From: Escherichia phage ManiWeber_Bas99
Length of the DNA stretch: 64,000 nucleotides
Reading direction: 5' to 3' (one strand)
Sequence record: PQ850618.1
The translations under genes and the position numbers were made by a program. Within the stretch, counting starts at the first letter, position 1, and every line of letters starts with the position of its first letter. Under the pieces are notes generated by a model. The model saw only the letters and a program-made list of their open reading frames with translations. It was not told where the DNA came from and ran no database searches. Shown piece after piece: positions 2,049 to 58,351 of the stretch.

Positions 2049-2222
2049 AGAGGAAGTTATGCAAAAGATTATTCAGTCACGTTATGTTAAAGTGCGAAAT
2101 ATTAATTGCAACTCTTTGCTTTCTTGGAAATGGGCTGTTTATGACTCGATGTTGATTGGCGTTTTAGTGGCAGGAGTGCTATTTAATATTCACTGAATTC
2201 ATCGGCAAAGGATTGCCGAGAG

Positions 2223-2505
2223 TTTTATACGTATAATGACGTATCATCCGTATCAAGTAAGTTGTTGTTTTCAAAAGAATCTTACGGATGATACGGATGA
2301 TACGCGTTGCCGCCGTACTATATAGGAATTCAAATAAATTAATTTAAAATTATATATCTAATTTAATTTTATTTTTTTATAAACTCTTATATGTGAAAAG
2401 TATCCGTATCATCCGTATCATCCGTATCACACCAGTGATAGCGCGGCTTATACACCGATACGGATAAAAATACGCCTCATTTTATCCGTATCATCCGTAT
2501 CACAC
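2223..2505. repeat. Iteron module A: inverted arrays of the 9-mer TCCGTATCA flanking an AT-rich core
   Basis: GTATCATCCGTATCA about 2241-2255; reverse copies about 2282-2304; about 70 bp of more than 85% AT at about 2325-2395; three tandem copies at about 2401-2430 and two at about 2482-2503. Confidence 0.7.
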
Positions 2506-2611
2506 TAATAAAGGCGCGGCTATATCGGTTGTTATACATATTCAAACCATAATTATTGTTTGCCTAAGTTTTTTTCATTAGATATAATACACAATACTTA
2601 TTTGAGGGTGG

Positions 2612-4030
2612 ATGCGAATGCAAACGGCACGCGAAATTGACAAAAATGGATTCTTGACGATTATGGGTTGTCCGATTTCGTCATTTGGCATTTTTGATTA
2701 TTCTGCTGGTCAAGTTGGTCTTGATGGTGATCCGAATCGCATCGTAAAAGTCTATCGCCCTGAGTCAGCGGTGAAAGACCCCGAAGCGATAGATTCATTC
2801 AAAAATATCCCTTTCATCGACAATCACGAAATGCTTTCTGGATTTGAAGGTGATGAGGATAACACAGCACCCGAAGAGTATGGCGTTGATGGCGTTCTAA
2901 CTGGCAATGTTTATTATGACAAGCCATGGATGCGCGGCGACCTTAAAGTGTTTAGCCGTCGTCTGAAGAAGGCCATTGATTCTGGAAAGGTTGACTTGTC
3001 TTTGGGCTATGACTGTGAATTCATCATACAGTCTGGAGAGTTTGACGGGCAGCCGTATGAAGTGGTACAGACAACTCTTCGCGGCAACCACATTGCTCTC
3101 GTGGACGTTGGTCGAGTACCAGGTGCACGGGTGCTGGATGGTCGTTGCTTTGACCATCTTTGTTTGACGACTGTAACACCATCCAACGAGGATTTAGACA
3201 TGCCAAAACCGTTAAAAGGTAAAGCGCGTGATAATGCTGTTGAACAGCTGAAATCACTGATCCCTGCGCTCGAACAATTTCTGAATGAAGAGAGCACCGA
3301 AGCGGCTCATCAGGACGAAGTTGAAGTGAAAGCAGAAGAGAAGGATTCAACCGAAGAACGTGAAGAAGTGATGGTTGATCCAGAAGTTAAAGCAGAAGCT
3401 GAAGAAACTCCAGAAGGTGAAGAGAAGTTTGAAGTTGAAACTGAATCTCACGCTGGCGGCGAGCTTCCGCAACTGATCAGCCAAATCGAAGCACTTATTG
3501 CAAAACTGAAAGGTGGCGCGGTAGGTGATGAAGAAGAAGTTGAAGCCGAAGTCAAAGACGAAGAAGTTGAAGTCAAGGCTGAAGATGTATCACCTTGCGA
3601 CAAAGCTGAAGATGTGGTTAGCGGCCTGCAAAACAGCAACGTAAAGGGGGCTTCGGTCGAAAAAGATGACAAACCGACAAAAGCGGCGAAAGCGTCGCCA
3701 GGTCCAGCAAAAGGGGAACACTCAATGGCATCTGATTCAGCAGTTGCTGCTTTCTACGCTGATTCTGCTCGTAAGAATAGCCTCTACCAGCGCCTGTCTA
3801 AAGTTGTTGGTGCCTTTGATCATGCAACTATGGACTCCAAGTCCGTAGCGAAATATGGCGCTAAAAAGTTAGGCTTGAAGTGCGTTGATGGTGCTGAGTT
3901 TGACGTGGTGGATAATTATCTGCGCGGCGTTGAACACGGTCAAAAACAGCGTGTAGTCGCAAAACAAAAGGCCGCTGCGGATTCTGCAGCGACTGACGAA
4001 GCATTTGAAGCTTGGTTGAAAGGGGAATAA
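2612..4030 (+). CDS. Putative prohead protease / scaffolding protein
   Basis: 472 aa; highly acidic E/V/K-rich central region typical of scaffolds; sits between morphogenesis and capsid genes; RBS GAGGG. Confidence 0.4.
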   Translation: MRMQTAREIDKNGFLTIMGCPISSFGIFDYSAGQVGLDGDPNRIVKVYRPESAVKDPEAIDSFKNIPFIDNHEMLSGFEGDEDNTAPEEYGVDGVLTGNVYYDKPWMRGDLKVFSRRLKKAIDSGKVDLSLGYDCEFIIQSGEFDGQPYEVVQTTLRGNHIALVDVGRVPGARVLDGRCFDHLCLTTVTPSNEDLDMPKPLKGKARDNAVEQLKSLIPALEQFLNEESTEAAHQDEVEVKAEEKDSTEEREEVMVDPEVKAEAEETPEGEEKFEVETESHAGGELPQLISQIEALIAKLKGGAVGDEEEVEAEVKDEEVEVKAEDVSPCDKAEDVVSGLQNSNVKGASVEKDDKPTKAAKASPGPAKGEHSMASDSAVAAFYADSARKNSLYQRLSKVVGAFDHATMDSKSVAKYGAKKLGLKCVDGAEFDVVDNYLRGVEHGQKQRVVAKQKAAADSAATDEAFEAWLKGE

Positions 4031-31052: not shown

Positions 31053-33936
31053 CTGGATACACCTGTTTGATAACGTCGACGATGAACATGTCAATGCCTT
31101 CAAGTTTGCGGCCTTTCATCAGGAAGAATGCGCCGTTCCCGACGTTCTCTGCAATGTATTTCCCGTATTTCTGGAACTTCTCTGGACGAATCCTGAAGCG
31201 CATTGGCGAGTCGGTCGAATCGTCCTTGCACATAAGGTCAATGAACTGAGTCTCAAGCTTGTTTCCATACTGGTCAAACTCTGCGTAGCGGCCATCAGCT
31301 TGAAGACCCTTTTTAAGTTTGCCGTGCTTTGTATAAATGCCGCGCTCAAGACGTTTACGGATGCGTGTCGCTTCGTTCTCGTCAGCCAGCACTTTCTTGG
31401 TCAACTTGCCGATCACTATTGCACGCTCGTCATCGCCGACTTCCTTCATCTGGCGTATTGAAGCACCGGAAGTAACGCCAATCAGATAGGGGTCATTATA
31501 TGCCCATCCGAACTTTGTGTGCATCTCTGTAAGGTCGCCGTATTTGACTTCAGCATTGGCCAATGCATCCTTTTGCTTTTGCGTTAAGGTTCCGGCTTCA
31601 CGTGCTTCGATATACTTCATTGCCTTCACCATGCCATATCCTTTTGCGTTCATGATGCCGCCGATTAGCTTTCCGTTAGCGATGGTCCAGTTCATTGAAG
31701 AGTGGTCAGGGTCGATTGGCACATAATCCACGCCTTCCTTCGCAAGTTCACGTAATATCGCAATCGTCTGGTCTTCGTCCTTAGCAGCGCGTAAGCAGGC
31801 AGCGGCAAATTCCAACGGGTAGTGTCGCTTAAGCCACAAGGTCCAGTAGGTCACGACCGCGTATGATACGGAGTGTGACTTGTTAAAGCCCCATGACCCG
31901 AACGTCGCCATCGCTTGCCAAAGCTTTCTTGCATCCGCTTCCGGTACGCCGTTATTTATTGCTCCTGCAACGAAGTCTTCGCCAAGCTTGTTAAAGTATT
32001 CCTCACCCTTACGACCTGACATCGCCTTACGTACAGCGGATGTTTTCGCCCAGTCAAATGAACCAATCTCTTTAACCACGGCCATGATTTGCTCTTGGTA
32101 AAGAAACACGCCGTAAGTCTCTTTTAAGTACGGCTCAAGCTGCGGCACGTCGTACTCAATCGGCGCACGTCCTGCCGCGCGTTCAATGTATTTCTGGGCC
32201 ATACCGGACGACAACGGGCCAGGTCGGCCAAGTGCTGTCAGGTTATCGATTTTGTTAAAGTTATCAACGTGCACAAAGTTGGTTACTGAGCGTACAGCGT
32301 CGCCTTCAAACTGGAAGATGCCTGACATCTTGTTTTCGTTAAGGATGTCAAGGACGCTTTGGTCATCAAGCTTGATTCCGTACAGCGTTTCAGCATCTAT
32401 CACGCCAGTATCAGAAATGATTCCGAGAGTACGAAGGCCCAGCGCATCAAGCTTCAAAAGGTTTAGGTATTCGCTGTCAGGCTTATCGATTTGCGCAATA
32501 CCTTCTGCAGTTACAGTACAGTAATCAGAGATTGGGTCATTACACACAATGATTCCCGCTGCGTGAACACCTGTGTGAGACGGGTGAATCTCAAGGTCAC
32601 CCATGCAACGCGCGGCGTCAGGATATTTCGCCACAAACTCTTGGCCCGTGGTCGTTGTTGCAAAGGTATCCTCCAGGCCGTGACCATAACGGGCGTCACC
32701 GGATGAGTATTCAAGCAGTGCGTTTTTAATGTTGGCCGTTTCGTGGTATCCAATGTTGAACTTCTTACCAACCTGCGCCATTACTGAGTTGGCCTTAAGC
32801 GTGTTGATGTTGCCAAGCTTTGCAACGTTCATTTCGCCATATTTCTCTTTAAGATAATCAAACACCATGTAGCGTTTGGTATCTTCAAAGTCGATGTCGA
32901 TGTCAGGAAGGTCGGCGCGGCTTACGTCGATGAATCGGGCAAACAGCAGCTTATACGGGATTGGGTCCACTTCCGTGATGCCGAGGCAATAGCAAACAAG
33001 TGAACCAGCCGATGAGCCGCGCGCAGGACCGACGAGCATTTTTGTTTTTGCGAATCGCACAAGGTCCGCTACCACCAGAAAGTATGAGTCGAAATCTTTC
33101 AGCTGAATCTGGTGAATCTCTTCGTTGAAGCGGTCCTCATATTCCTGAGTCCATTCTTTGATGTGACCTGCTTTTAGACGGTACTCCATCCCCTCACGAG
33201 CAAGCTTTACCATGTCACCAGCAAGGTGAATAATCGGTGCCTTACGCAATTTCAAGTCAAGTCCGACTATGCCGTTTGCTATGTCAACAGCATTGGCCGT
33301 TGCCTGATCAAGTTCATCTTCAGTCAAGATGCCTTTAAGCTGTTTGCGCAAATCTTCCACGTCAACGATGCAATGCGGCTTGACCGTGTCGCGCACTTCC
33401 CAAGCATAAGCAAAGTCAACGTGCTCAGGTGAAGGCATGTGGTTGTATCCGGTTAAAACCAGCGGCCTTCCACCGCTACGATGAGCCAATGCCTGGCGCT
33501 TTGCCAAAAGGAACGATGATGGGTTGACGTCTATATAGTCGTAGTCCTCTGGCCGCAGCAACTCCACGGCACCGCCACAGAATTTAACGACGCCATCGAG
33601 CGCACCGAACTCTGCACGGGTAAGCCCACCGCGCTGCGTTGAAAGTGTTGTAGCGTTGTAAAAAGATTTTAAGTCAAGGGCCAATATCCAAGCCTTCGGT
33701 TTGAATCCCTTTTTCGGGTCCGCATCAGGGTCGATGATTGGAATCTCCATCCCAAACATAGGCTTAATATCATTTTTCTGGCATTCCTTTTCCCAGCGAA
33801 CGTGACCCCATGTGTTGTTATCAACTAATGCCGCGACTTCGCAGCCCAACTCTTTGAGCCGTGCTATAATTTCAGGATGCCGTCCATAAACTTCTTTGAA
33901 CGTGTAACCGCTGCGAACTCTCAATTGTGGAAACAT
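31039..33936 (-). CDS. dnaE: DNA polymerase III alpha-subunit homolog (DnaE-type)
   Basis: 965 aa; NKSHSVSYAVVTYWTLWLKRHYPLEFAAACL matches the conserved DnaE palm motif; N-terminal PHP region lacks the usual His pair. Confidence 0.85.
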   Translation of the reverse strand: MFPQLRVRSGYTFKEVYGRHPEIIARLKELGCEVAALVDNNTWGHVRWEKECQKNDIKPMFGMEIPIIDPDADPKKGFKPKAWILALDLKSFYNATTLSTQRGGLTRAEFGALDGVVKFCGGAVELLRPEDYDYIDVNPSSFLLAKRQALAHRSGGRPLVLTGYNHMPSPEHVDFAYAWEVRDTVKPHCIVDVEDLRKQLKGILTEDELDQATANAVDIANGIVGLDLKLRKAPIIHLAGDMVKLAREGMEYRLKAGHIKEWTQEYEDRFNEEIHQIQLKDFDSYFLVVADLVRFAKTKMLVGPARGSSAGSLVCYCLGITEVDPIPYKLLFARFIDVSRADLPDIDIDFEDTKRYMVFDYLKEKYGEMNVAKLGNINTLKANSVMAQVGKKFNIGYHETANIKNALLEYSSGDARYGHGLEDTFATTTTGQEFVAKYPDAARCMGDLEIHPSHTGVHAAGIIVCNDPISDYCTVTAEGIAQIDKPDSEYLNLLKLDALGLRTLGIISDTGVIDAETLYGIKLDDQSVLDILNENKMSGIFQFEGDAVRSVTNFVHVDNFNKIDNLTALGRPGPLSSGMAQKYIERAAGRAPIEYDVPQLEPYLKETYGVFLYQEQIMAVVKEIGSFDWAKTSAVRKAMSGRKGEEYFNKLGEDFVAGAINNGVPEADARKLWQAMATFGSWGFNKSHSVSYAVVTYWTLWLKRHYPLEFAAACLRAAKDEDQTIAILRELAKEGVDYVPIDPDHSSMNWTIANGKLIGGIMNAKGYGMVKAMKYIEAREAGTLTQKQKDALANAEVKYGDLTEMHTKFGWAYNDPYLIGVTSGASIRQMKEVGDDERAIVIGKLTKKVLADENEATRIRKRLERGIYTKHGKLKKGLQADGRYAEFDQYGNKLETQFIDLMCKDDSTDSPMRFRIRPEKFQKYGKYIAENVGNGAFFLMKGRKLEGIDMFIVDVIKQVYPDGNK

Positions 33937-42032: not shown

Positions 42033-43115
42033 ATGGCTAGTTTAAGAGAAGAAGCAAAAATAATCGAAGAGTTTTTAACAGAACTCCAAAGAGGCATTCC
42101 AGAAGATGAGCGCGTCATGACGGTGTTTGCGCCTGAAGCAACGGTGCAGACTGACGAGCGCGGCAAGAAGATTAACAGCAGCTTCTGGCCTAAGCCTTGG
42201 AAGTTGGGCAAGCCGCTCATGCAGCACCAAAACGGCTATGCCTGCATCAGTTCAATGCGTAAGTCTCCCAACCCGAAGACGGGTGAGATGCGATACTGGC
42301 GTACAGAGTCAGCCTTTGGTCACGGTATGGCGATGATGGTCGACGACATCGGTCACGGTAAAGGGTCCAAAGGCGATTTAGATTTGGAATTCTTTTTCGA
42401 GCGACTGAAGCCGACTGTCATTGTCGAGACGTCACCGAACAACCACCAGCTGTGGTACTTCTTTAAAGAACCAATTGACCATCTTATTCAGTTCAAAGCA
42501 TTCCTTGGGTCTTTCGTAAACATGGTACTCAAGAAGGGCGGCGACAACACGATTAAAGACGTAACGCGCGTGGGCCGTGTTCCTGGGTGCATCAACAACA
42601 AGCGCGTGACTCACGACGGCCCCTATAAATATGTCGATGAGAACGGCGACCCGTTCCGCTGCCGACTTGTCCATGCAGATTACTCCTTGCGCTACACCAT
42701 CGAAGACATTTGTCAGGCATTCGGCTTTCACGTTGTAATGCCGCAAAAGCGTGAGATTCAAATTGACGTCGATGAATACAAATACGATGCTGTTTGGTAT
42801 AAGATAGCCCAGCAGATTCTAGCGCGCAACAAGATGGGTGAAGGGTCTGATGGCGACGTTATCGAGAATATGTCAGGTAAGTGTCGCATAATCTGTCCTT
42901 GGGGTGAAGAGCACACCAACGGCGACCCGTATGGCGCTTACTTTCGCGGCCCTATCCCTGGTGCAGAACATGAATTTGTGTTCGGTTGCGCCCACGACTG
43001 TCACCGGAAAGGGGAAGGCAAGAAAGGTTGGACCGCTTTTGTTGAAGCAATCGTCATGCCTTATATTGAGAATCAACTTGACATGATAAATCGTCGTGCA
43101 GGTGGCATAAAATAG
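42033..43115 (+). CDS. Primase, archaeo-eukaryotic (AEP/PrimPol-like) type
   Basis: 360 aa; acidic MMVDDIGHG motif, ETSPNNHQLWYFF motif, C-terminal Cys/His cluster CPWGEEH...CAHDCH. Confidence 0.5.
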   Translation: MASLREEAKIIEEFLTELQRGIPEDERVMTVFAPEATVQTDERGKKINSSFWPKPWKLGKPLMQHQNGYACISSMRKSPNPKTGEMRYWRTESAFGHGMAMMVDDIGHGKGSKGDLDLEFFFERLKPTVIVETSPNNHQLWYFFKEPIDHLIQFKAFLGSFVNMVLKKGGDNTIKDVTRVGRVPGCINNKRVTHDGPYKYVDENGDPFRCRLVHADYSLRYTIEDICQAFGFHVVMPQKREIQIDVDEYKYDAVWYKIAQQILARNKMGEGSDGDVIENMSGKCRIICPWGEEHTNGDPYGAYFRGPIPGAEHEFVFGCAHDCHRKGEGKKGWTAFVEAIVMPYIENQLDMINRRAGGIK

Positions 43116-44425: not shown

Positions 44426-46096
44426 ATGTCAATTAATAATGACAATCTTCCAGAGGATACAGGTGATGAATTTGGTGCAATCTTTGACGAAATTCAAGAT
44501 GCAGGCGTTTCGGAAGAAATGCAGGCAGCAGAGCAGCAAGGCACCAGAGCTAAAATCAGCCTTCAACATAAAGCCGTTGAAAAAGATTCAGAGCGCATGG
44601 AATGCTACGGTGAAGAAGACTTGGTTGAAAGAGCACGCTTGCTCGCCTCACTTCAGGTAATCAAGTTCCCTCACTACAAGCCTACCAAAGATGACTTCGT
44701 TCTACAGGCAGACCGGACGAGTGACATGAACCGTTATGCGGTTTTCGACGCGTTGTTTGATAAGGGAAGTGGCATTGTTCCATTCCCTCACAAAGATACT
44801 TTTCGTGGGCGCTTAGTCGACCATCGCGGCGAAACATTCACTGACCGTACCTTGGAAGTCACAGAGATAGTTGCCGCTGTCGACGCAGCAGGGCTGTCCA
44901 ACCCAAACTCACGTCAGGTCGCTCAATCCTATAAGGAATGGGCCATGCGTTATCAGCGCGACGACCTGATGGACTTCTTCTACAAGAAGCTGCCTGAATG
45001 GGACGGTACTGCGCGCATCGAGAAATACCTTATCGAGCTATTCCGACCGTTCGATACAGAGTTAAACCGACGAATCGGTGTGTATTTTTGGCTATCGCTC
45101 TATAACCGCCTGACCAACCCTGGCTGTCAAGCGCCAATCTCCATCGCGCTCATCGGCGGCCAGAACGCAGGGAAGAGTTATTTTAGCAAGCTGCTTTGCG
45201 AAGCTATTATGAACGACCGCCACGCAACACCGATTCCGTTGAACTTAGCCGCGCAAAACTTCAACCCGTTCTTGCGCGCCATCACGGGTCGCTCCATTAT
45301 CGCGAACGTTGGCGAGATGACAGGCTTTAAAAAGGCTGACATCGAAAACATGAAAGCATTCCTGACTAAGACGGAAGACGACCTGGACTTCAAATTTGAA
45401 GATACACAGGTTAAACCACGCCAGTGGATTGCTATTATGGACGGCAACGAATACGCAGGCATGCAGCGTGATGACACGGGCAACCGTCGTGTGTATCCTA
45501 TCTTTGTTGGCCAACTTGCCGACAAGGACGGGCAGCCGAACTGGTCGAAAGACTTCCAAGCTGACCTTTCCACTTTGAAAGAAGACGTTTGGCAGTTGAT
45601 GGCTGAGTGCGCTGCGTGGATGGAGAAGCACGGCGAAGCAGGCTATAACGCGTTTGTTGGTGAAACATCTCGCATGCTTACTGAGTTCAGTAAAAACGAA
45701 ATGGAACGCGCTCGCGGCGTTATCCGTGATGAGATGGTTGACAACGACCTTGTTGAAGTCGTCATCACCGCGCCTTATGACCGACATCACAGCGGACGCT
45801 GGCACATCACCAGTGGTGCTATTGCTATGGGATTCAGAGCGAAGTGTGGCAAGTCGCCTTTCTCTCGTACCCTTGCGCCACACATGTCGAAGCTTGGTTT
45901 TGAGCCTGCAACCTATCGCAACCAGCGCGGTTACTTTACGCCGCTGATTAAGAATGAAGCAGGAGAATACATTTCTGATTTGATGACCATCTTAGCGTAT
46001 CTTATTCGCGATGAGTCTGACCCTGAAGATATTGAATTCTTGAAGAAGGTTATCGAGCGTAAACGTTCTTTGGGAAGAGATAAGGATGAATTCTGA
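44426..46096 (+). CDS. VirE-like / primase-associated P-loop NTPase
   Basis: 556 aa; Walker A LIGGQNAGKS; size and architecture resemble VirE/D5-type helicases. Confidence 0.5.
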   Translation: MSINNDNLPEDTGDEFGAIFDEIQDAGVSEEMQAAEQQGTRAKISLQHKAVEKDSERMECYGEEDLVERARLLASLQVIKFPHYKPTKDDFVLQADRTSDMNRYAVFDALFDKGSGIVPFPHKDTFRGRLVDHRGETFTDRTLEVTEIVAAVDAAGLSNPNSRQVAQSYKEWAMRYQRDDLMDFFYKKLPEWDGTARIEKYLIELFRPFDTELNRRIGVYFWLSLYNRLTNPGCQAPISIALIGGQNAGKSYFSKLLCEAIMNDRHATPIPLNLAAQNFNPFLRAITGRSIIANVGEMTGFKKADIENMKAFLTKTEDDLDFKFEDTQVKPRQWIAIMDGNEYAGMQRDDTGNRRVYPIFVGQLADKDGQPNWSKDFQADLSTLKEDVWQLMAECAAWMEKHGEAGYNAFVGETSRMLTEFSKNEMERARGVIRDEMVDNDLVEVVITAPYDRHHSGRWHITSGAIAMGFRAKCGKSPFSRTLAPHMSKLGFEPATYRNQRGYFTPLIKNEAGEYISDLMTILAYLIRDESDPEDIEFLKKVIERKRSLGRDKDEF

Positions 46097-53860: not shown

Positions 53861-54349
53861 CCTGTGTAATGGGAGGCTTTTGTGGTTATTTACGATTCAA
53901 GGCTGTAATTTAAGAGAGCGAAAATATTATAATAATTTATCAAGATTATTGCATATTGTGGCAATCAACGTTTATACGTATTTATGACAGTTTAATCCAC
54001 TAAATAATACGGATAGAACAGTGAGGAAAATACAGCGGTGTATTTTAGTGTAAATATTGAATCAAAAATAAATAATTATGGTGCTATTATATACGCAGAT
54101 TGTTTGTAATTTATAGGATATTTTATCGTGGAGTATTGGCTAACGGTGCGTTAGCCGTGGGTCTTGGTGCTTGTGGTGTTGATGCTCAGAATTTTAATAA
54201 TGTTTTTAGTTTTAGTAATCGTAGTCAATGATGATACGTATAAGAAAATGAGAGTCACCCCTTCACAGGATATTGTACCGTGGCCCTGTGGCGCGCCGCG
54301 CCTGGGATTGCTGGTATACACTGGTGCTATTTTGCCGCGAAGGCAGTCA

Positions 54350-54685
54350 TTCATACGTATCATGACGTATCATTGGGCTATTGATTTATAAGGAAAAATA
54401 CGCTGATACGGATGATACGGATGCAAACATAATATATATAGAATTCCAGAAAATTAATTAACTCCATTTTGAATTAATTTAAATTAATTTTTTTCTACAT
54501 CCTCATACTTATACTAAACTTATATTTATACGTATTATCCGTAAGATATAAGTAAAAACAAAGACTTGCGGCAATACGGATGATACGTCATGATACGCTT
54601 CAACCAGCCAGCAGCGGCTAAGTCATTGATTTGCATAGCAAGCGGCGAAAGGGATGGATTTCTTTTATACGTATCAAACAGTACA
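54350..54685. repeat. Iteron module B: same repeat family and architecture as module A
   Basis: ACGTATCATGACGTATCAT about 54354-54373; reverse copies about 54404-54423 and 54574-54597; AT-rich core about 54424-54530; TTTTATACGTAT shared with module A. Confidence 0.7.
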
Positions 54686-54826
54686 CCACGCACCACGGTC
54701 CGTTATCCATTCAGCAATATGATTTGTGTACGTTTATAGCCATAATGAACATCAATCTGCACTTGAATATAATGTTCATCCATTGTATAATTCACACTAT
54801 TAATTTGCACTATGGGATTTTGCACT

Positions 54827-55300
54827 ATGAGTCAAGATTATGTAGCGATGCCTGAAGACTTTGAAGACCCGCGATTTGCAGAGCACAATCAGGCTTTATT
54901 CGATGAGTTCATTGACCTTGTTATTCAGGGCCATGACATGCGCGCAGCTTTTGCACTAGTATTTGGAATGGAAGTTGCAACGGATAACTACACTGGCCAG
55001 CGAATCCTTTGCACGCAACGCAATCCATACTACAAGATGCGCTTCAAAAAGCGTATGGAAGAGATGCCACTCAAGGATTTGTGGAGCGTAAAAGGTGCAA
55101 TTCACAATTTGGTTAAGCTTGTGCGTGATCCAGAAGTCGCAGCGTCAGCCAAGCTTAATGCTATTCGTGAACTGAATATCATCTACGGCATCACGATGAT
55201 TGATGAAAACGGCAATAGTAAAATGGGCCGTTCCATGGACGATTTCTACAAGGATTTTGGAGAGGCGGCCAAAGAAGGTGAGCAATTCTCCCGCCACTAG
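54827..55300 (+). CDS. Putative DNA-binding protein (possible terminase small subunit)
   Basis: ATG overlapping an 11-mer copy; about 157 aa; helix-turn-helix-like N-terminus; adjacent to iteron module B; assignment tentative. Confidence 0.3.
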   Translation: MSQDYVAMPEDFEDPRFAEHNQALFDEFIDLVIQGHDMRAAFALVFGMEVATDNYTGQRILCTQRNPYYKMRFKKRMEEMPLKDLWSVKGAIHNLVKLVRDPEVAASAKLNAIRELNIIYGITMIDENGNSKMGRSMDDFYKDFGEAAKEGEQFSRH

Positions 55301-55317
55301 CCAATTTGCACTATAAA

Positions 55318-55355
55318 ACGGCCCTAGAACACATCTTCTCCACTTCTAGGGCCAT
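55318..55355. other. Strong hairpin GGCCCTAGAA-(14)-TTCTAGGGCC
   Basis: Perfect 10-bp stem directly downstream of 54827-55300; weak T-tract on the minus strand. Confidence 0.4.
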
Positions 55356-55728
55356 CGGTAATACGACGGGGAAGGTTACAACCATAAACGCGTTAGAAAG
55401 TGTATTATTATAAGTCATCTTTTAGTCACTTTACGTAACAATTTACGACCTTCAGCCGTCCAATCGAACGACTCCACCAGCAGATTCGCACTATAACCTA
55501 AGATGATGCGCCCTTTCTCGTTATCGACCCGCCAACAAGTCTCGAATAGCATTCGATTTGCACTATTAACTATCGCCGCAACGCGCGTAGGGTAAACGCA
55601 ATTTGCACTATGGTCATAAAGGGATAAGGTGCGACCACTTCCGATGGACAACGTAGCGATGAGAATGAGCGTATTCATAAGCCACCAATTTGCACTATGA
55701 AAAGCGACCCCGAAGGGCCGCCATTCGA

Positions 55729-56355
55729 TTAGATAATCTGGAAGGTGTAGGACTTGTTGCCGAACTCGAAGTTCAAGCGCCCAGCTTCCTTAAGCTTCAT
55801 GCGGAAGCGAATGTGCTTGCTATCCGGTAATCCCAGCGCGGCGAACGCTACGCGGACCGATTTGAACTCGCCTACACCCTCGACCATGACACCGTTACGG
55901 GTAAGACGCTTTTGCGCCACTTCCTTATTATCCCAGCTTTTTGCAATACCTTCGCTATTCGAACGGCGATGGGAAGGAGTTCCATTTTGCACTACGCAAT
56001 TTGCACTATCGTTTAAACCGCTCTTAACGAAGGCTTCATATTCTTCGTCGGTCATCGCGTCGAGTTCTTCCTGGGTCGGCTCAGCCTTTTTAACGACCGC
56101 ACGCGCCTTATGCGTTTTTACATCGCTGGACACTTCCTCGCGCGACTTCGCGTCTGGGATGGGCGATTCGTTGGACGGCTCATCTAGCGCGTTTAAGGAC
56201 TCGATTAACGCGATGACGCGAGTCTCAGCGGTCCGGCGGTCCGAAAATTTCTTAATCGGCTTCGAACCGGAATTTGCATTATAAAATGCAACGAGGTCGG
56301 CGGTCTTAGTTGCGATAACGTCGCCGCTAGTCGAGAAACGATTTAAGCTAACCAT
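55729..56355 (-). CDS. Hypothetical protein in the CG-rich island
   Basis: 208 aa; strong RBS TAGGAG; codon and dinucleotide usage differ from the rest of the window; contains 11-mer copies. Confidence 0.4.
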   Translation of the reverse strand: MVSLNRFSTSGDVIATKTADLVAFYNANSGSKPIKKFSDRRTAETRVIALIESLNALDEPSNESPIPDAKSREEVSSDVKTHKARAVVKKAEPTQEELDAMTDEEYEAFVKSGLNDSANCVVQNGTPSHRRSNSEGIAKSWDNKEVAQKRLTRNGVMVEGVGEFKSVRVAFAALGLPDSKHIRFRMKLKEAGRLNFEFGNKSYTFQII

Positions 56356-56435
56356 AATAAACTCCTATTTGTTAGGGCGCTAGGCGCGAAAGAATTTTAT
56401 TAAAGCGCCGCGCACGACGCTCTAAAAATCCTCTC

Positions 56436-56720
56436 TTACGCTTCGACGAGGGAGAAGGTCTCAAATTCTTCTTCGCCCATAACGAGTAAGATATTACCGA
56501 TTTCGACCGCTTCGAAGAAATATCCGTTAACGTTTACTTCGAAGGCTTCGCGGTCCGATTCCGGTAGCGCCGCGTAAAGTTTAAAAGCCTCGGCGACCGT
56601 TACCCCACCCGCCTCGATAGTTTGGCCTACGTTCGCGGCGTAGACTTCGGATAAAATTTGTTTTACGCCGTAGTTCTCGACGATAGCGTTACGAATAGAA
56701 GAAACGTTAAGAATAGCCAT
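56436..56720 (-). CDS. Small acidic protein, island paralog A
   Basis: 94 aa; RBS AGGAG; paralog of 57355-57645 (NVNGYFFEAVEIGNILLV vs TINGFVYTITEIGGEYLAV). Confidence 0.45.
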   Translation of the reverse strand: MAILNVSSIRNAIVENYGVKQILSEVYAANVGQTIEAGGVTVAEAFKLYAALPESDREAFEVNVNGYFFEAVEIGNILLVMGEEEFETFSLVEA

Positions 56721-56744
56721 TTTAAACTCCTAGTTGGGAGAGGC

Positions 56745-56818
56745 GTTAACGACCTATTCGTTAACTCATCCCGTCCCGATATGAGTACATTATAATATAG
56801 TGTAGAAAAAAGTAAAGC
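56745..56818 (-). promoter_or_regulatory. Promoter and structured leader of paralog A (minus strand)
   Basis: Minus-strand -35 TTTACT (plus about 56811-56816), -10 TATAAT (plus about 56789-56794); leader hairpin TTAACGA-ATAGG-TCGTTAA (plus about 56746-56764). Confidence 0.5.
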
Positions 56819-56858
56819 ACTTTTTCGATAAAAATGCGATAAATTATTTTATCTTTTT

Positions 56859-56890
56859 TCTTTACTTCTTCGTACACTCGCGTATACTTG
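56859..56890 (+). promoter_or_regulatory. Promoter of paralog B
   Basis: CTTTACTTCTTCGTACACT block: -35 TTTACT, 16-bp spacer, -10 TATACT; back to back with the paralog A promoter. Confidence 0.45.
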
Positions 56891-56944
56891 TTTATATCGA
56901 GACGGGCGATGGCCCTTTCTTCTACTAGCATCGGGAGCTTTATT

Positions 56945-57247
56945 ATGACTACTTTAATCTCTTCCATCCTTACTTACGACGAAGACCGCTTAACCGTTCG
57001 CTCTCTTATCGCCGCCGTTAACGCGGAACTAGAATCTAGCGCCATTAAGGTCCGCGCGGTCGCCTTCATCGGCCTTTCCTTCGACGATATGAAGTATGCC
57101 GAACGTAGCGCCATCCGCTTCGCGAAGACCGACGACGAAGCCGTTACCCTTATCGAGACGGTTACGCCGCGCGGCGAAGCGTTAATTATCGTCGAGTATA
57201 TCGACGTAGAAGGCGATAAATCTTATAAACATTTTATCGCAGAATAA
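56945..57247 (+). CDS. Small acidic protein, island paralog B (distant)
   Basis: Internal ATG after GGGAG; about 100 aa; weaker similarity to A and C. Confidence 0.4.
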   Translation: MTTLISSILTYDEDRLTVRSLIAAVNAELESSAIKVRAVAFIGLSFDDMKYAERSAIRFAKTDDEAVTLIETVTPRGEALIIVEYIDVEGDKSYKHFIAE

Positions 57248-57256
57248 CGAAAAAGT

Positions 57257-57331
57257 GCTTTACTTCTTCGTACACTAAGACTATAATGTTTTATATCGAG
57301 AGGGGATGAGGTAGCGAATAGGTCGCTGCCC
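57257..57331 (+). promoter_or_regulatory. Promoter and structured leader of paralog C
   Basis: -35 TTTACT (about 57259-57264), 17-bp spacer, -10 TATAAT (about 57282-57287); leader hairpin GTAGCGA-ATAGG-TCGCTGC (about 57311-57329); about 80% identical to the paralog A leader. Confidence 0.5.
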
Positions 57332-57354
57332 TCCCGACCAACTAGGAGATTATT

Positions 57355-57645
57355 ATGATTACTTTAGCCGCTATCCGTTCCGCTCGCGTCGAGACTTCCG
57401 AAAACTCTAACGTATTTGGCGAAACCTTAGAGAGCGTTTATCTCTCTAACGTAGACGCAACTATCGAATCCATTTATGAGCCGATCAACTTCCTCGACCT
57501 TTACAAGTATCGCGATGAGGACATCGTGTCTTGCCGCGTAACGATCAACGGCTTCGTCTATACGATTACCGAAATCGGCGGCGAATATCTCGCGGTCCCG
57601 CAACTCGGCGGCGAAGTAACTTATTTTAAAATCGTCTCCTTATAA
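57355..57645 (+). CDS. Small acidic protein, island paralog C
   Basis: 96 aa; RBS AGGAG; paralog of 56436-56720. Confidence 0.45.
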   Translation: MITLAAIRSARVETSENSNVFGETLESVYLSNVDATIESIYEPINFLDLYKYRDEDIVSCRVTINGFVYTITEIGGEYLAVPQLGGEVTYFKIVSL

Positions 57646-57663
57646 TACCCTTCCGTTACTAAT

Positions 57664-57692
57664 AGGCCGCGCTTAGTCGCGGCTTTTCTTCG
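57664..57692 (+). terminator. Rho-independent terminator after paralog C
   Basis: GGCCGCGCTTAGTCGCGGCTTTTCTT: GC stem plus T-run. Confidence 0.55.
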
Positions 57693-57810
57693 CCCCTATC
57701 TCGGTGCGCTCCTACGCGAAAACTCCTTTATCCTTACCTTCGTCGTCGCATAATCTTCGTCGAGATGCTCCTTAGTTCGCATAACAGGTATTACGTTAAA
57801 TGGAGAACAT

Positions 57811-58095
57811 CGCGTAAGTCGTTGTTTTATATAGACACCTATATCGGACCGTTAGCGAGGGTCGCGTAAGTCGTTGTTTTATAAAGGCGCAAAACTTTCC
57901 CTTCGTTCCGAACTAAAACGAGGAATATGCCGACCCTTCGCCCGAAAATAGTACGCATGCGATATTACCGACATCTAGAATAATCCCTCCCGATATTATT
58001 ACGCGCTCAATCATTAGCTTTCGAATCATTATGCTGCATACTATTATGCGCCAAATCATTAGCCTTCGAATTGTAACGCTGGAAACTGTAACGTC
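57811..58095. repeat. Noncoding stretch dense in direct repeats
   Basis: 21-bp CGCGTAAGTCGTTGTTTTATA twice (about 57811-57831 and 57863-57883, 52 bp apart); AATCATTAGC(T/C)TTCGAAT twice (about 58008-58026 and 58053-58071); TGTAACG twice; no convincing ORF. Confidence 0.6.
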
Positions 58096-58351
58096 GATTG
58101 ATTATTGCGTTCGTGTGGTTTTTAGGACATGGGTCTTTTGGTGCGTTTTGCTACTTGATGGAATTTGCAGTACACTAATCAAAATACGACACATTTGGTC
58201 CACTAACTTTTCAAAGAAAAAGTCCTAGACAGTACCGTACTATTTTGTACCCACAGGAAATTTGCCGTACACTCCTGCGCGGCAGGCAAAAATAAAGGGC
58301 CGCACTAAGCGACCCACAACCCACGATTCACGGTTAAATCAGCAACACCCA

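What the first reader, a model, noticed from the sequence alone, without database searches (positions are those of the whole stretch)
2223..2505. Iteron module A: inverted TCCGTATCA arrays around an AT-rich core inside the head-gene cluster
Direct and inverted copies of the 9-mer TCCGTATCA (up to three in tandem) flank about 70 bp of more than 85% AT. The block sits in a 560-bp noncoding gap between the fibre-like gene and the protease/scaffold gene. Iterons next to a DNA-unwinding element are the classic replication-origin architecture; a packaging recognition site is the alternative. The unit TTATCCGTA also partly resembles a DnaA box (TTATCCACA). A second copy of the same architecture exists at 54.35-54.6 kb.
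Basis: partly seen in the sequence, partly recalled or inferred. Interest (0 to 1): 0.6.

Follow-up and report, generated by a model that had tools for sequence, protein, structure and literature searches.

The report
Twin origin-like repeat modules in a phage
The repeat block is real and is one of two sister copies of an old, conserved DNA control element in PB1-like phages. It most likely acts as a replication origin, and its sister copy is where the packaged genome's left end is cut.

Summary
TCCGTATCA occurs 10 times in the window against 0.36 expected. Seven copies flank an 80-bp core of 90% AT at 2319-2398. The block at 54.2-54.7 kb is a true paralogue (74% identity).

The window is a Wifcevirus, an E. 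coli myophage related to PB1. Four genera keep the same two modules: Wifcevirus, Pbunavirus, Bcepfunavirus and Myosmarvirus. One module lies upstream of the head protease operon (A) and one upstream of the small-terminase gene (B). The short boxes differ between genera but are the same in both copies of a genome. A second motif, YGCGGCW, is shared across genera and changes strand at the AT core (40 of 42 sites).

In module B the AT core contains the exact left end of the packaged DNA. This is also the left boundary of a 3,673-bp terminal repeat (window 54466-58138), mapped by three laboratories. Module A lacks B's cut-site motif, and no deposited record or paper I read places an end there.

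The phage encodes a RepB'-type primase and a VapE-like helicase.

My best reading (about 0.45) is that both modules are replication origins and that B also carries the end-forming cut. The rivals are a non-cutting terminase-binding site and a control region for late operons. No wet-lab test was possible.

The parts
2202..2229 (+). Terminator-like hairpin plus T-run that closes the upstream head-fibre/small-ORF transcription unit. It is the left edge of module A.
   Evidence: stem 2202-2219, then GAGTTTTATA. This is the most variable part of the gap among Wifceviruses.
2229..2255 (+). Module A, left outer array: three boxes on the + strand (ACGTATAA, ACGTATCA, CCGTATCA) at 10- and 9-bp spacing.
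2283..2305 (-). Module A, left inner array: boxes on the - strand (TACGGATGATACGGATGATACG). Together with 2240-2255 it forms a 16-nt perfect inverted repeat with 33 nt between the arms.
   Evidence: I4. As single-stranded DNA it folds into a 16-17-bp hairpin, z = -3.8.
2309..2313 (-). GCGGC motif on the - strand, left of the core.
2319..2398 (.). AT-rich core of module A (90% AT), the most AT-rich 80 nt in the window. Candidate DNA-unwinding element. It contains TATAGGAATTC and AATTAATTTAAA, which are shared with module B.
2404..2429 (+). Three tandem CCGTATCA boxes at 9-bp spacing, right of the core.
   Evidence: The third copy is CCGTAGCA in four relatives.
2411..2521 (+). Two copies of a 38-nt direct repeat (2411-2448 and 2484-2521, 87% identical). 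Each is two boxes followed by CAC..(A/G)GCGCGGCT, so each ends in a GCGGC motif on the + strand (2443, 2516). A single inverted box at 2456-2463 lies between them and pairs with 2480-2492.
   Evidence: D1, I11.
2560..2588 (+). Sigma-70-like promoter (TTGCCT-17-TATAAT) for the protease-scaffold-capsid operon, whose first gene starts at 2612. Invariant in five genomes.
   Evidence: This is a consensus match only.
54232..54420 (.). Module B, left half. Boxes at 54232-54239 (-), at 54355-54362 and 54365-54372 (+), and at 54404-54411 and 54413-54420 (-). GCGGC on the - strand at 54295 and 54334. The flank left of 54404 exists in three unrelated versions among Wifceviruses, but the inner TACGGATGATACGGAT is invariant.
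54425..54530 (.). Module B AT-rich core (85% AT over 54451-54530). The left end of the packaged DNA lies at 54465|54466 (AATTAACTCC^ATTTTG).
   Evidence: Five linear records start at this same nucleotide: WFC, WFH, Ro157lw, SP13 and Mansfield. Methods: PacBio read ends (PMC6563267) and PhageTerm (PMC6454146, PMC6753283).
54530..54676 (.). Module B, right half. Degenerate + boxes at 54530-54545, three - boxes at 54573-54598, and one + box at 54669-54676. GCGGC on the + strand at 54568, 54614 and 54642. AAAGACTTGCGGCAAT is shared with the PB1 and Maja modules.
54812..55300 (+). Small terminase (TerS) gene, the first gene inside the terminal repeat.
   Evidence: phmmer against PDB 7UXE (E217 small terminase), E = 6e-34. 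Annotated as TerS in Mansfield.
54466..58138 (.). Direct terminal repeat, 3,673 bp. It is present once in this window.
   Evidence: The ends of Ro157lw, SP13, WFH and Mansfield coincide. Mansfield's PhageTerm repeat is also 3,673 bp.
42033..43115 (+). RepB'-type (archaeo-eukaryotic) DNA primase. Candidate enzyme for priming at the modules.
   Evidence: Pfam RepB_primase, E = 4.5e-36.
44426..46096 (+). VapE-like P-loop NTPase, a putative replicative helicase or initiator. Its C-terminal ~100 residues are the least conserved part across genera.
   Evidence: Pfam VapE-like_dom, E = 2.6e-28. PDB 7PDS, E = 7e-11. Alignment A4.

Best explanation
Module A is one of two paralogous copies of a conserved non-coding element on which proteins assemble on the DNA. 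I think it most likely works as an origin of bidirectional DNA replication.

Proposed mechanism:
1. A phage-encoded sequence-specific protein binds the genus-specific 8-10-bp boxes. These sit as short tandem arrays in convergent pairs on both sides of the core. The best candidate binder is the VapE-like helicase, through its divergent C-terminal region.
2. Binding opens the ~80-bp AT core.
3. The exposed single strands carry the conserved YGCGGCW motif on the lagging-strand template of each diverging fork.
4. The conserved RepB'-type primase starts DNA synthesis there.

The sister module B has the same parts. It also carries a B-specific sequence (AACTCC^ATTTT) at which the left end of the 3,673-bp terminal repeat is cut, next to the terS gene.

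Shown here: the anatomy, the paralogy, conservation in four genera with turnover of the boxes, the strand polarity of the second motif, the position of the genome end, and the identity of the genes.

Inferred, not shown: protein binding, unwinding, priming, and which protein does what.
For: 1. Anatomy: the box arrays flank the two most AT-rich stretches of the window.
2. A and B are paralogues with the same order of parts.
3. Conservation: the same two positions carry such modules in Pbunavirus PB1, Bcepfunavirus Maja and Myosmarvirus MyoSmar. The boxes are TCCGTATCA, GGTAATTTGG, GATAGTTAAC and TACTTTTCG respectively. They differ between genera but are identical in the two copies of one genome. 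That implies one cognate phage-encoded binder that co-evolves with its sites.
4. YGCGGCW is shared by all four genera. Left of the core 18 copies lie on the - strand and 2 on the + strand; right of it 22 lie on the + strand and none on the - strand. That is 40 of 42 concordant, naive binomial 2e-10. This is the orientation expected for priming sites on the lagging-strand templates of forks leaving the core.
5. The phage encodes a RepB'-family primase and a VapE-like NTPase. In RSF1010 oriV, an initiator bound to iterons and a helicase expose two primase sites on complementary strands, which RepB' then uses (PMC8567376).
6. In PB1, Maja and MyoSmar, module B lies directly downstream of the VapE-like gene.
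7. The VapE-like C-terminus is the least conserved region across genera.
8. Module A sits between a terminator-like hairpin and the operon promoter. The whole stretch 2230-2611 is as conserved as coding DNA, at 96-99% in 28 genomes.
9. Module A lacks the cut motif and no record opens there, so the function shared by A and B is not cutting.
Against: - No experiment or replication-mapping data were available.
- Cumulative GC skew only follows gene orientation and shows nothing at A.
- Module B is adjacent to terS in all four genera, and it stays next to terS in Wifcevirus even though the VapE-like gene is 8 kb away. Its core is the packaged DNA end. That is the classic signature of a terminase recognition site.
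- GCGGC is only about twofold denser in the Wifcevirus modules than in the rest of the window. The polarity count pools homologous and paralogous modules, so the P value overstates independence.
- Xanthomonas phage FoX6 shows no box arrays in the syntenic stretch.
- No separate initiator protein was identified.
Confidence: 0.45

Rival explanations
1. Module A is a terminase or TerS binding site that is not cut. In this reading both modules are packaging-recognition elements. B is the working start site, where the complex directs the left-end cut. A is a second binding site used for regulation or for pairing of two sites before packaging starts, as was proposed for the homologous sites in T4 genes 16 and 19 (from my own knowledge, not checked here).
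For: - The packaged DNA's left end lies exactly in B's core in five Wifcevirus records from three laboratories.
- In Serratia phages MyoSmar, MTx and KKP 3709 the end lies within the homologous module.
- terS is the next gene after B in all four genera.
- Short boxes on both sides of a central cut region is also the layout of the P1 pac site and of lambda cosB (own knowledge).
- Several Pbunavirus records open inside PB1's module B.
- Module A lies in the head-gene cluster.
Against: - A lacks the B-specific cut motif.
- No record or paper I read reports an end at A.
- A second terminase site with no cutting role has no obvious benefit, yet it is kept in four genera.
- E217 TerS, a homologue with 41% identity, is reported to show no appreciable DNA binding in vitro (PMC9611059).
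- This reading does not explain why a motif should change strand at the core in A as well.
Confidence: 0.25
2. Module A is a transcription-control region, or a long structured leader RNA, for a late operon. The boxes would be operator or activator sites (or RNA hairpin arms). The element is shared by two late units, terS and protease-scaffold-capsid.
For: - Both modules sit directly upstream of late morphogenesis genes and are followed by sigma-70-like promoters.
- terS is a single-gene unit between terminators in PB1 and WFC.
- The convergent boxes form hairpins whose sequence differs between genera while the pairing is kept.
- A CTGGG motif like the phage-specific promoter core reported for Pbunavirus 14-1 (PMC10914365) lies in the left part of module B in several genera.
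Against: - Only two modules exist per genome, while the other late operons (portal/TerL, tail) have none.
- The boxes lie 60-380 nt upstream of the promoter-like sites.
- A 90% AT core, dyad symmetry and a strand-polar motif are not typical of operators.
- There is no Rfam match.
- A genome end in the middle of a leader would be a coincidence.
- Start-site maps for 14-1 were not available to me.
Confidence: 0.12
3. Module A is a cluster of host DnaA boxes, that is, a host-initiator-dependent origin, as the reader's DnaA-box remark suggested.
For: TTATCCGTA matches 7 of 9 positions of TTATCCACA. Three one-mismatch matches to TTATNCACA occur in module A at 2448, 2532 and 2585.
Against: - There is no exact DnaA box in either module.
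- The one-mismatch matches do not coincide with the repeated boxes and are absent from the box arrays of module B.
- Only two of the more than 20 boxes carry the TTA prefix.
- Related phages use entirely different boxes.
Confidence: 0.03

Closest known systems
IncQ plasmid RSF1010/R1162 oriV (RepC iterons, AT-rich region, ssiA/ssiB, RepA helicase, RepB' primase)
   Same: Short repeated binding sites lie next to an AT-rich unwinding region. Priming-site candidates lie on complementary strands in inverted arrangement. A RepB'-family primase is encoded (Pfam E = 4.5e-36; mechanism as described in PMC8567376).
   Different: No RepC-like initiator or RepA-type helicase was found; a VapE-like NTPase is present instead. 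The candidate priming motif is a short multi-copy YGCGGCW, not a single 40-nt hairpin site. The boxes lie on both sides of the core. There are two copies per genome, and one copy holds a genome end.
SaPI/PICI replication origins (two iteron sets flanking an AT-rich region, bound by a Rep helicase next to a primase gene). This comparison is from my own knowledge and was not checked here.
   Same: There are two sets of short repeats on either side of an ~80-bp AT-rich stretch. The origin lies just downstream of the primase/helicase genes, as module B does in PB1, Maja and MyoSmar. Specificity changes between relatives.
   Different: The element sits in a virulent 68-kb myophage. It has two copies, convergent hairpin-capable box pairs, an extra conserved polar motif, and a link to terS and to the genome end.
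P1 pac site, lambda cosB and SPP1 pacL/pacR (terminase recognition sites). This comparison is from my own knowledge.
   Same: Short repeated elements on both sides of a central region where the DNA end is made, lying next to the small-terminase gene. This fits module B.
   Different: Module A is 16 kb from the end, lacks the cut motif and is not next to terS. The ends here bound a 3.7-kb exact terminal repeat; they are not cohesive ends and not a headful series.
Phages with two related origin elements: SPP1 oriL/oriR and P4 ori/crr. This comparison is from my own knowledge.
   Same: Two distant copies of the same initiator-binding repeats next to AT-rich DNA in one genome. In P4 they are bound by a primase-helicase.
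   Different: Binding has not been shown here. The positions are tied to morphogenesis genes, and one copy coincides with the packaged DNA end.

Membership tests
Iteron-type replication origin | Multiple copies of a short sequence, far more than chance, clustered in non-coding DNA | tested here: met
   10 exact 9-mers against 0.36 expected, clustered at only two loci.
Iteron-type replication origin | An AT-rich DNA-unwinding element next to the repeats | tested here: met
   The cores are the most and second most AT-rich 80-nt windows, at 90% and 85% AT. Unwinding itself was not tested.
Iteron-type replication origin | A cognate initiator encoded by the element binds the repeats | not testable with these tools
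   Candidates exist: the VapE-like NTPase with a divergent C-terminus and TerS. Co-variation of the boxes in both copies within each genus implies a cognate binder.
Iteron-type replication origin | Replication starts at the site | not testable with these tools
   GC skew is uninformative. No marker-frequency data were available.
IncQ-type oriV | A RepB'-family primase is encoded | tested here: met
   Pfam RepB_primase, E = 4.5e-36, for 42033-43115.
IncQ-type oriV | Two single-strand initiation sites on complementary strands with hairpins | tested here: inconclusive
   YGCGGCW changes strand at the core, 40 of 42. Each flank folds into a 13-17-bp hairpin. There is no single 40-nt ssi-like site, and similarity to ssiA was not tested.
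IncQ-type oriV | RepC initiator and RepA helicase | tested here: not met
   Neither a RepC nor a RepA family was found among the 10 proteins scanned; a VapE-like NTPase is present instead. Only 10 proteins were scanned.
Terminase recognition site (pac/cos type) | The packaged DNA end maps in or next to the site | tested here: not met
   This verdict is for module A. No record starts there and the cut motif is absent. For module B the feature is met (PMC6454146, PMC6753283, PMC6563267).
Terminase recognition site (pac/cos type) | Adjacent to or inside the small-terminase gene | tested here: not met
   Module A lies between the head-fibre gene and the protease gene. Module B is 346 nt upstream of terS.
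Terminase recognition site (pac/cos type) | TerS binds the repeats | not testable with these tools
   E217 TerS is reported not to bind DNA appreciably in vitro (PMC9611059). I could not find out which DNA was tested, because the primary paper is not held.
DnaA-box cluster | Matches to TTATNCACA | tested here: not met
   No exact match in either module. The boxes differ at two positions in the CACA part.
Known structured RNA (Rfam) | Match to a curated covariance model | tested here: not met
   Only two sub-threshold plant microRNA matches, caused by the inverted repeat.

The most novel reading that the evidence does not exclude
The module is a helicase-loading origin, and the copy next to terS links replication to the making of the long terminal repeat. 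In this model, replication starting in module B's unwound core re-copies the 3.7 kb to its right in the concatemer. The left end is then cut at the edge of that bubble. This would give a concrete mechanism for how exact long terminal repeats are duplicated, which a 2026 review still lists as poorly understood (PMC13595956). Module A would be the plain origin version of the same element.
Probability: 0.15. Interest if true: 0.85.

Novelty: new variant of a known kind. Interest (0 to 1): 0.6.

Why it matters
PB1-like phages (Pbunavirus) are among the most used therapeutic Pseudomonas phages, and Wifceviruses are reported to replicate unusually fast (PMC11990801). I found no described origin or packaging signal for them. 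No paper in the searchable library prints these repeats.

- If the two-module element is the origin or packaging signal of the group, it could guide design choices when engineering or rebooting these phages.
- It provides a natural set of matched pairs of site and (still unidentified) binding protein in four genera.
- It offers a tractable system for studying how exact long terminal repeats are made.
- The strand-polar YGCGGCW motif is a testable candidate recognition site for a phage RepB'-type primase.

Tried and rejected
- A scan of IMG/VR for the double box returned only the known isolates, one metagenome contig and chance single hits, so it added no diversity.
- GC skew follows gene orientation and says nothing about origins.
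- Rfam gave nothing.
- Start-site tables for Pbunavirus 14-1 are not held. The primary papers on E217 terminase and on PB1 genome ends are not held either.
- I first noted that the number of tandem boxes varies between genomes. The alignment showed a point change, not a copy-number change.
- I tried to use Pbunavirus as a relative without fixed ends. The literature conflicts: permuted in PMC12345254, non-permuted as cited in PMC3008698. Several records also open inside module B. I dropped this argument.
- PS44's second terS hit did not prove to be a terminal repeat.
- Comparing substitutions in boxes and spacers of module A does not discriminate, because the whole gap is conserved.
- Xanthomonas phage FoX6 has no recognisable module A.
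- I did not predict the structure of the VapE-like C-terminus. Only a single sequence could have been submitted, and the result would not show which DNA it binds.

Full report
**What the window is.** The region 1500-4500 matches 28 Wifcevirus genomes at 96-97% identity. These are E. coli and Shigella myophages of 66-72 kb and are distant relatives of Pseudomonas phage PB1 (PMC11990801). Module A lies between a gene with a weak head-fibre Pfam hit (1035-2048), followed by a 45-codon ORF (2060-2197), and the head maturation protease gene (2612-4030). The scaffold-like and major head genes follow.

**Checking the observation.** TCCGTATCA occurs 10 times against 0.36 expected, and no shuffle of 100 reached 10. 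The core CGTATCA occurs 23 times against 6.9 expected, with 17 of the 23 in the two modules. The 4.7 kb of genome missing from the window carries none (tested on WFC).

The layout of module A, from left to right, is as follows:
- three + strand boxes at 2229-2255;
- a 33-nt spacer;
- boxes on the - strand at 2283-2305;
- the AT core at 2319-2398;
- three tandem + boxes at 2404-2429;
- one - box at 2456-2463;
- two + boxes at 2486-2502.

The two cores are the most and second most AT-rich 80-nt windows in the 64 kb. Modules A and B align at 74% identity with the same order of parts. Both share TATAGGAATTC / TATAGAATTC and AATTAATTTAAA in the core.

**The sister module holds the genome end.** Korf et al. 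found a terminal repeat of about 3.7 kb in WFC and WFH from abrupt read ends (PMC6563267). Liao et al. found a 3,533-bp repeat in Ro157lw with PhageTerm (PMC6454146). D'Souza et al. found a 3,673-bp repeat in Mansfield with PhageTerm (PMC6753283).

All five linear records I read start at the same nucleotide, ATTTT(G/A)A. These are WFC, WFH, Ro157lw, SP13 and Mansfield. That nucleotide is window 54466, in the middle of module B's AT core. Four of the five end at the same nucleotide...GGGTCTTT, which is window 58138. WFC ends 81 nt later. The terminal repeat in this window is therefore 54466-58138, which is 3,673 bp.

The first gene inside the repeat (54812-55300) is the small terminase. It matches PDB 7UXE, the E217 small terminase, at E = 6e-34. 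Mansfield annotates it as TerS, whereas WFC and Bas98 list it as hypothetical.

The right end of the repeat has no boxes. Two 45-bp tandem repeats lie just inside it.

**Conservation beyond the genus.** The protease gene of PB1 (45% identity) is preceded by a 550-bp gap, that of Burkholderia phage Maja by a 457-bp gap, and that of Serratia phage MyoSmar by a 470-bp gap.

Each gap has the same design but its own box:

| Genus (phage) | Box |
|---|---|
| Wifcevirus (this window) | TCCGTATCA |
| Pbunavirus (PB1) | GGTAATTTGG |
| Bcepfunavirus (Maja) | GATAGTTAAC |
| Myosmarvirus (MyoSmar) | TACTTTTCG |

Each of these genomes also has a second copy, with the same boxes, directly upstream of its terS homologue. 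In these three genomes that copy is also directly downstream of the VapE-like gene.

In MyoSmar the PhageTerm repeat boundary lies in this module, 387 nt upstream of terS. The records of Serratia phages MTx and KKP 3709 begin within about 14 nt of the homologous point.

Short relics are shared across genera. AAAGACTTGCGGCAAT in the window corresponds to AAAGTCTTGCGGCAGT in PB1 and AAAGACTTAGCGGCGAT in Maja. GGCGCGGCTATATCGG in module A corresponds to GTCGCGGCTACATCGA in PB1 module A.

Xanthomonas phage FoX6 has no such arrays in the syntenic stretch.

**Variation within the genus.** Module A is 96-99% identical in all 28 genomes and is unannotated in all but two of them. The whole stretch 2230-2611 is conserved, not only the boxes.

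In module B the side inside the terminal repeat is nearly invariant. The flank outside it exists in three unrelated versions. All three keep the inner TACGGATGATACGGAT and the sequence AATTAACTCC^ATTTT. One version (ECML-117, WFH, FEC19) carries a copy of module A's left arm, which points to sequence exchange between A and B. The motif AACTCCATTTT occurs once in the window, at the cut site, and A lacks it.

**A second, conserved motif.** GCGGC, in the context YGCGGCW, is present in all seven modules examined. Left of the AT maximum, 18 copies lie on the - strand and 2 on the + strand. Right of it, 22 lie on the + strand and none on the - strand. That is 40 of 42 concordant, with a naive binomial probability of 2e-10.

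Two caveats apply. The modules are related to one another, so the events are not independent. The density in the Wifcevirus modules is only about twice the background.

The orientation places the motif on the lagging-strand template of forks that leave the core.

**Genes that could act on the modules.** The ORF 42033-43115 is a RepB'-type primase (E = 4.5e-36). The ORF 44426-46096 is a VapE-like NTPase (E = 2.6e-28, with a PDB 7PDS match). A Dda-like helicase and an SNF2 helicase are also present, and relatives annotate DNA polymerase genes.

Across four genera the NTPase core of the VapE-like protein is highly conserved, while its last ~100 residues are not. TerS is 28-39% identical along its whole length.

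In RSF1010, initiator binding and helicase unwinding expose two primase sites on complementary strands, which RepB' then uses (PMC8567376).

As single strands, both flanks of both cores fold into 13-17-bp hairpins made of the convergent boxes. The z-scores are -4.3, -3.8, -1.4 and -2.7.

**Weighing the explanations.** The function shared by A and B cannot be cutting, because A lacks the cut motif and no end is reported there.

The origin reading accounts for the following:
- the box arrays;
- the extreme AT cores;
- the strand switch of a conserved motif;
- the encoded primase and helicase;
- the ancestral position next to the VapE-like gene;
- the presence of two copies.

It leaves one coincidence to explain, which is why the end is cut inside an origin core. 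I therefore keep a linked model as the most novel reading.

The terminase-site reading accounts well for B, through the end and the adjacency to terS, but poorly for A.

The late-operon control reading fits the positions but not the architecture or the copy number.

The DnaA-box idea fails.

I put the origin reading at 0.45, the non-cutting terminase site at 0.25, transcription or leader control at 0.12, and DnaA at 0.03. The remainder is unassigned.

**Novelty.** None of the papers I read on these phages describes the repeats, and a full-text search for the repeat strings found nothing. The primary papers on PB1 genome ends and on E217 terminase were not available. The element is a new variant of the known iteron-plus-AT-core kind. 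It exists as two paralogous copies at fixed positions, has lineage-specific boxes plus a cross-lineage polar motif, and one copy carries the boundary of a long terminal repeat.

Noticed in passing
window 54466-58138: This stretch is the phage's 3,673-bp direct terminal repeat, present once in the window. The left end is AACTCC^ATTTTG and the right end is GGGTCTTT^TGGTGCG. The boundaries are identical in four or five independently deposited genomes. WFC's right end is 81 nt longer.
   Followed up: yes
window 54812-55300: This gene is the small terminase (E = 6e-34 to PDB 7UXE), about 10 kb from where the large-terminase gene lies in relatives (WFC coordinates). It is 'hypothetical protein' in the WFC, WFH, Ro157lw, SP13 and Bas98 records and is annotated as TerS only in Mansfield. 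An 11-nt duplication, TTTGCACTATG x2, gives two in-frame ATG starts at 54812 and 54827.
   Followed up: partly
window 57993-58082: Two tandem 45-bp repeats (78% identical) end 56 nt inside the right boundary of the terminal repeat. Ro157lw, SP13 and WFH carry similar repeated units there. They could belong to right-end recognition or, as is discussed for T5 (own knowledge), to an injection-stop signal.
   Followed up: partly
window 54150-54403: The flank just outside the left repeat boundary exists in three unrelated versions among eight Wifceviruses. The ECML-117/WFH/FEC19 version carries a near-exact copy of module A's left arm (TCTTACGGATGATACGGATGATACGCGTYGCCGC), which suggests sequence exchange between the two modules and a recombination hot spot at the genome end.
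   Followed up: partly
ECML-117/WFH/FEC19 module B (L035, L009, L048) and MyoSmar L016 2648-2673 / 2937-2962: A ~20-nt motif, TATGGTGCGCCGCGACTGGG, is shared between E. coli Wifceviruses and Serratia phage MyoSmar. In MyoSmar it forms a 26-nt inverted repeat that brackets the core. It contains CTGGG, the core of the phage-specific promoter motif reported for Pbunavirus 14-1 (PMC10914365).
   Followed up: no
L053 1-200 against L015 1412-1560 (Pseudomonas phages PS44 and PB1): The PS44 record starts inside PB1's module B. In the four other Pbunavirus records I checked (PB10, PA11P1, Ab27, PA8P1) terS lies about 600 nt from base 1, which suggests the same start. Published statements on Pbunavirus genome ends conflict: non-permuted as cited in PMC3008698, circularly permuted in PMC12345254. 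Pbunaviruses may have a fixed end there too.
   Followed up: partly
L053 (KM434184, Pseudomonas phage PS44) 602-3840: In this record terS is followed within 1.3 kb by the large-terminase gene, unlike the ~58-kb separation in other Pbunaviruses, and terS matches a second place in the record. This may be a rearrangement or an assembly artefact.
   Followed up: no
L012 2606-3017 (Xanthomonas phage FoX6): Three tiny ORFs of 34-45 codons fill the stretch syntenic to module A. One is labelled 'putative DNA methyltransferase' at only 132 nt. No box arrays are present, and the small ORF calls look doubtful.
   Followed up: partly
window 31864-31872 (- strand): A single exact TCCGTATCA lies inside the DNA polymerase gene. 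It is isolated and most likely a chance occurrence.
   Followed up: no
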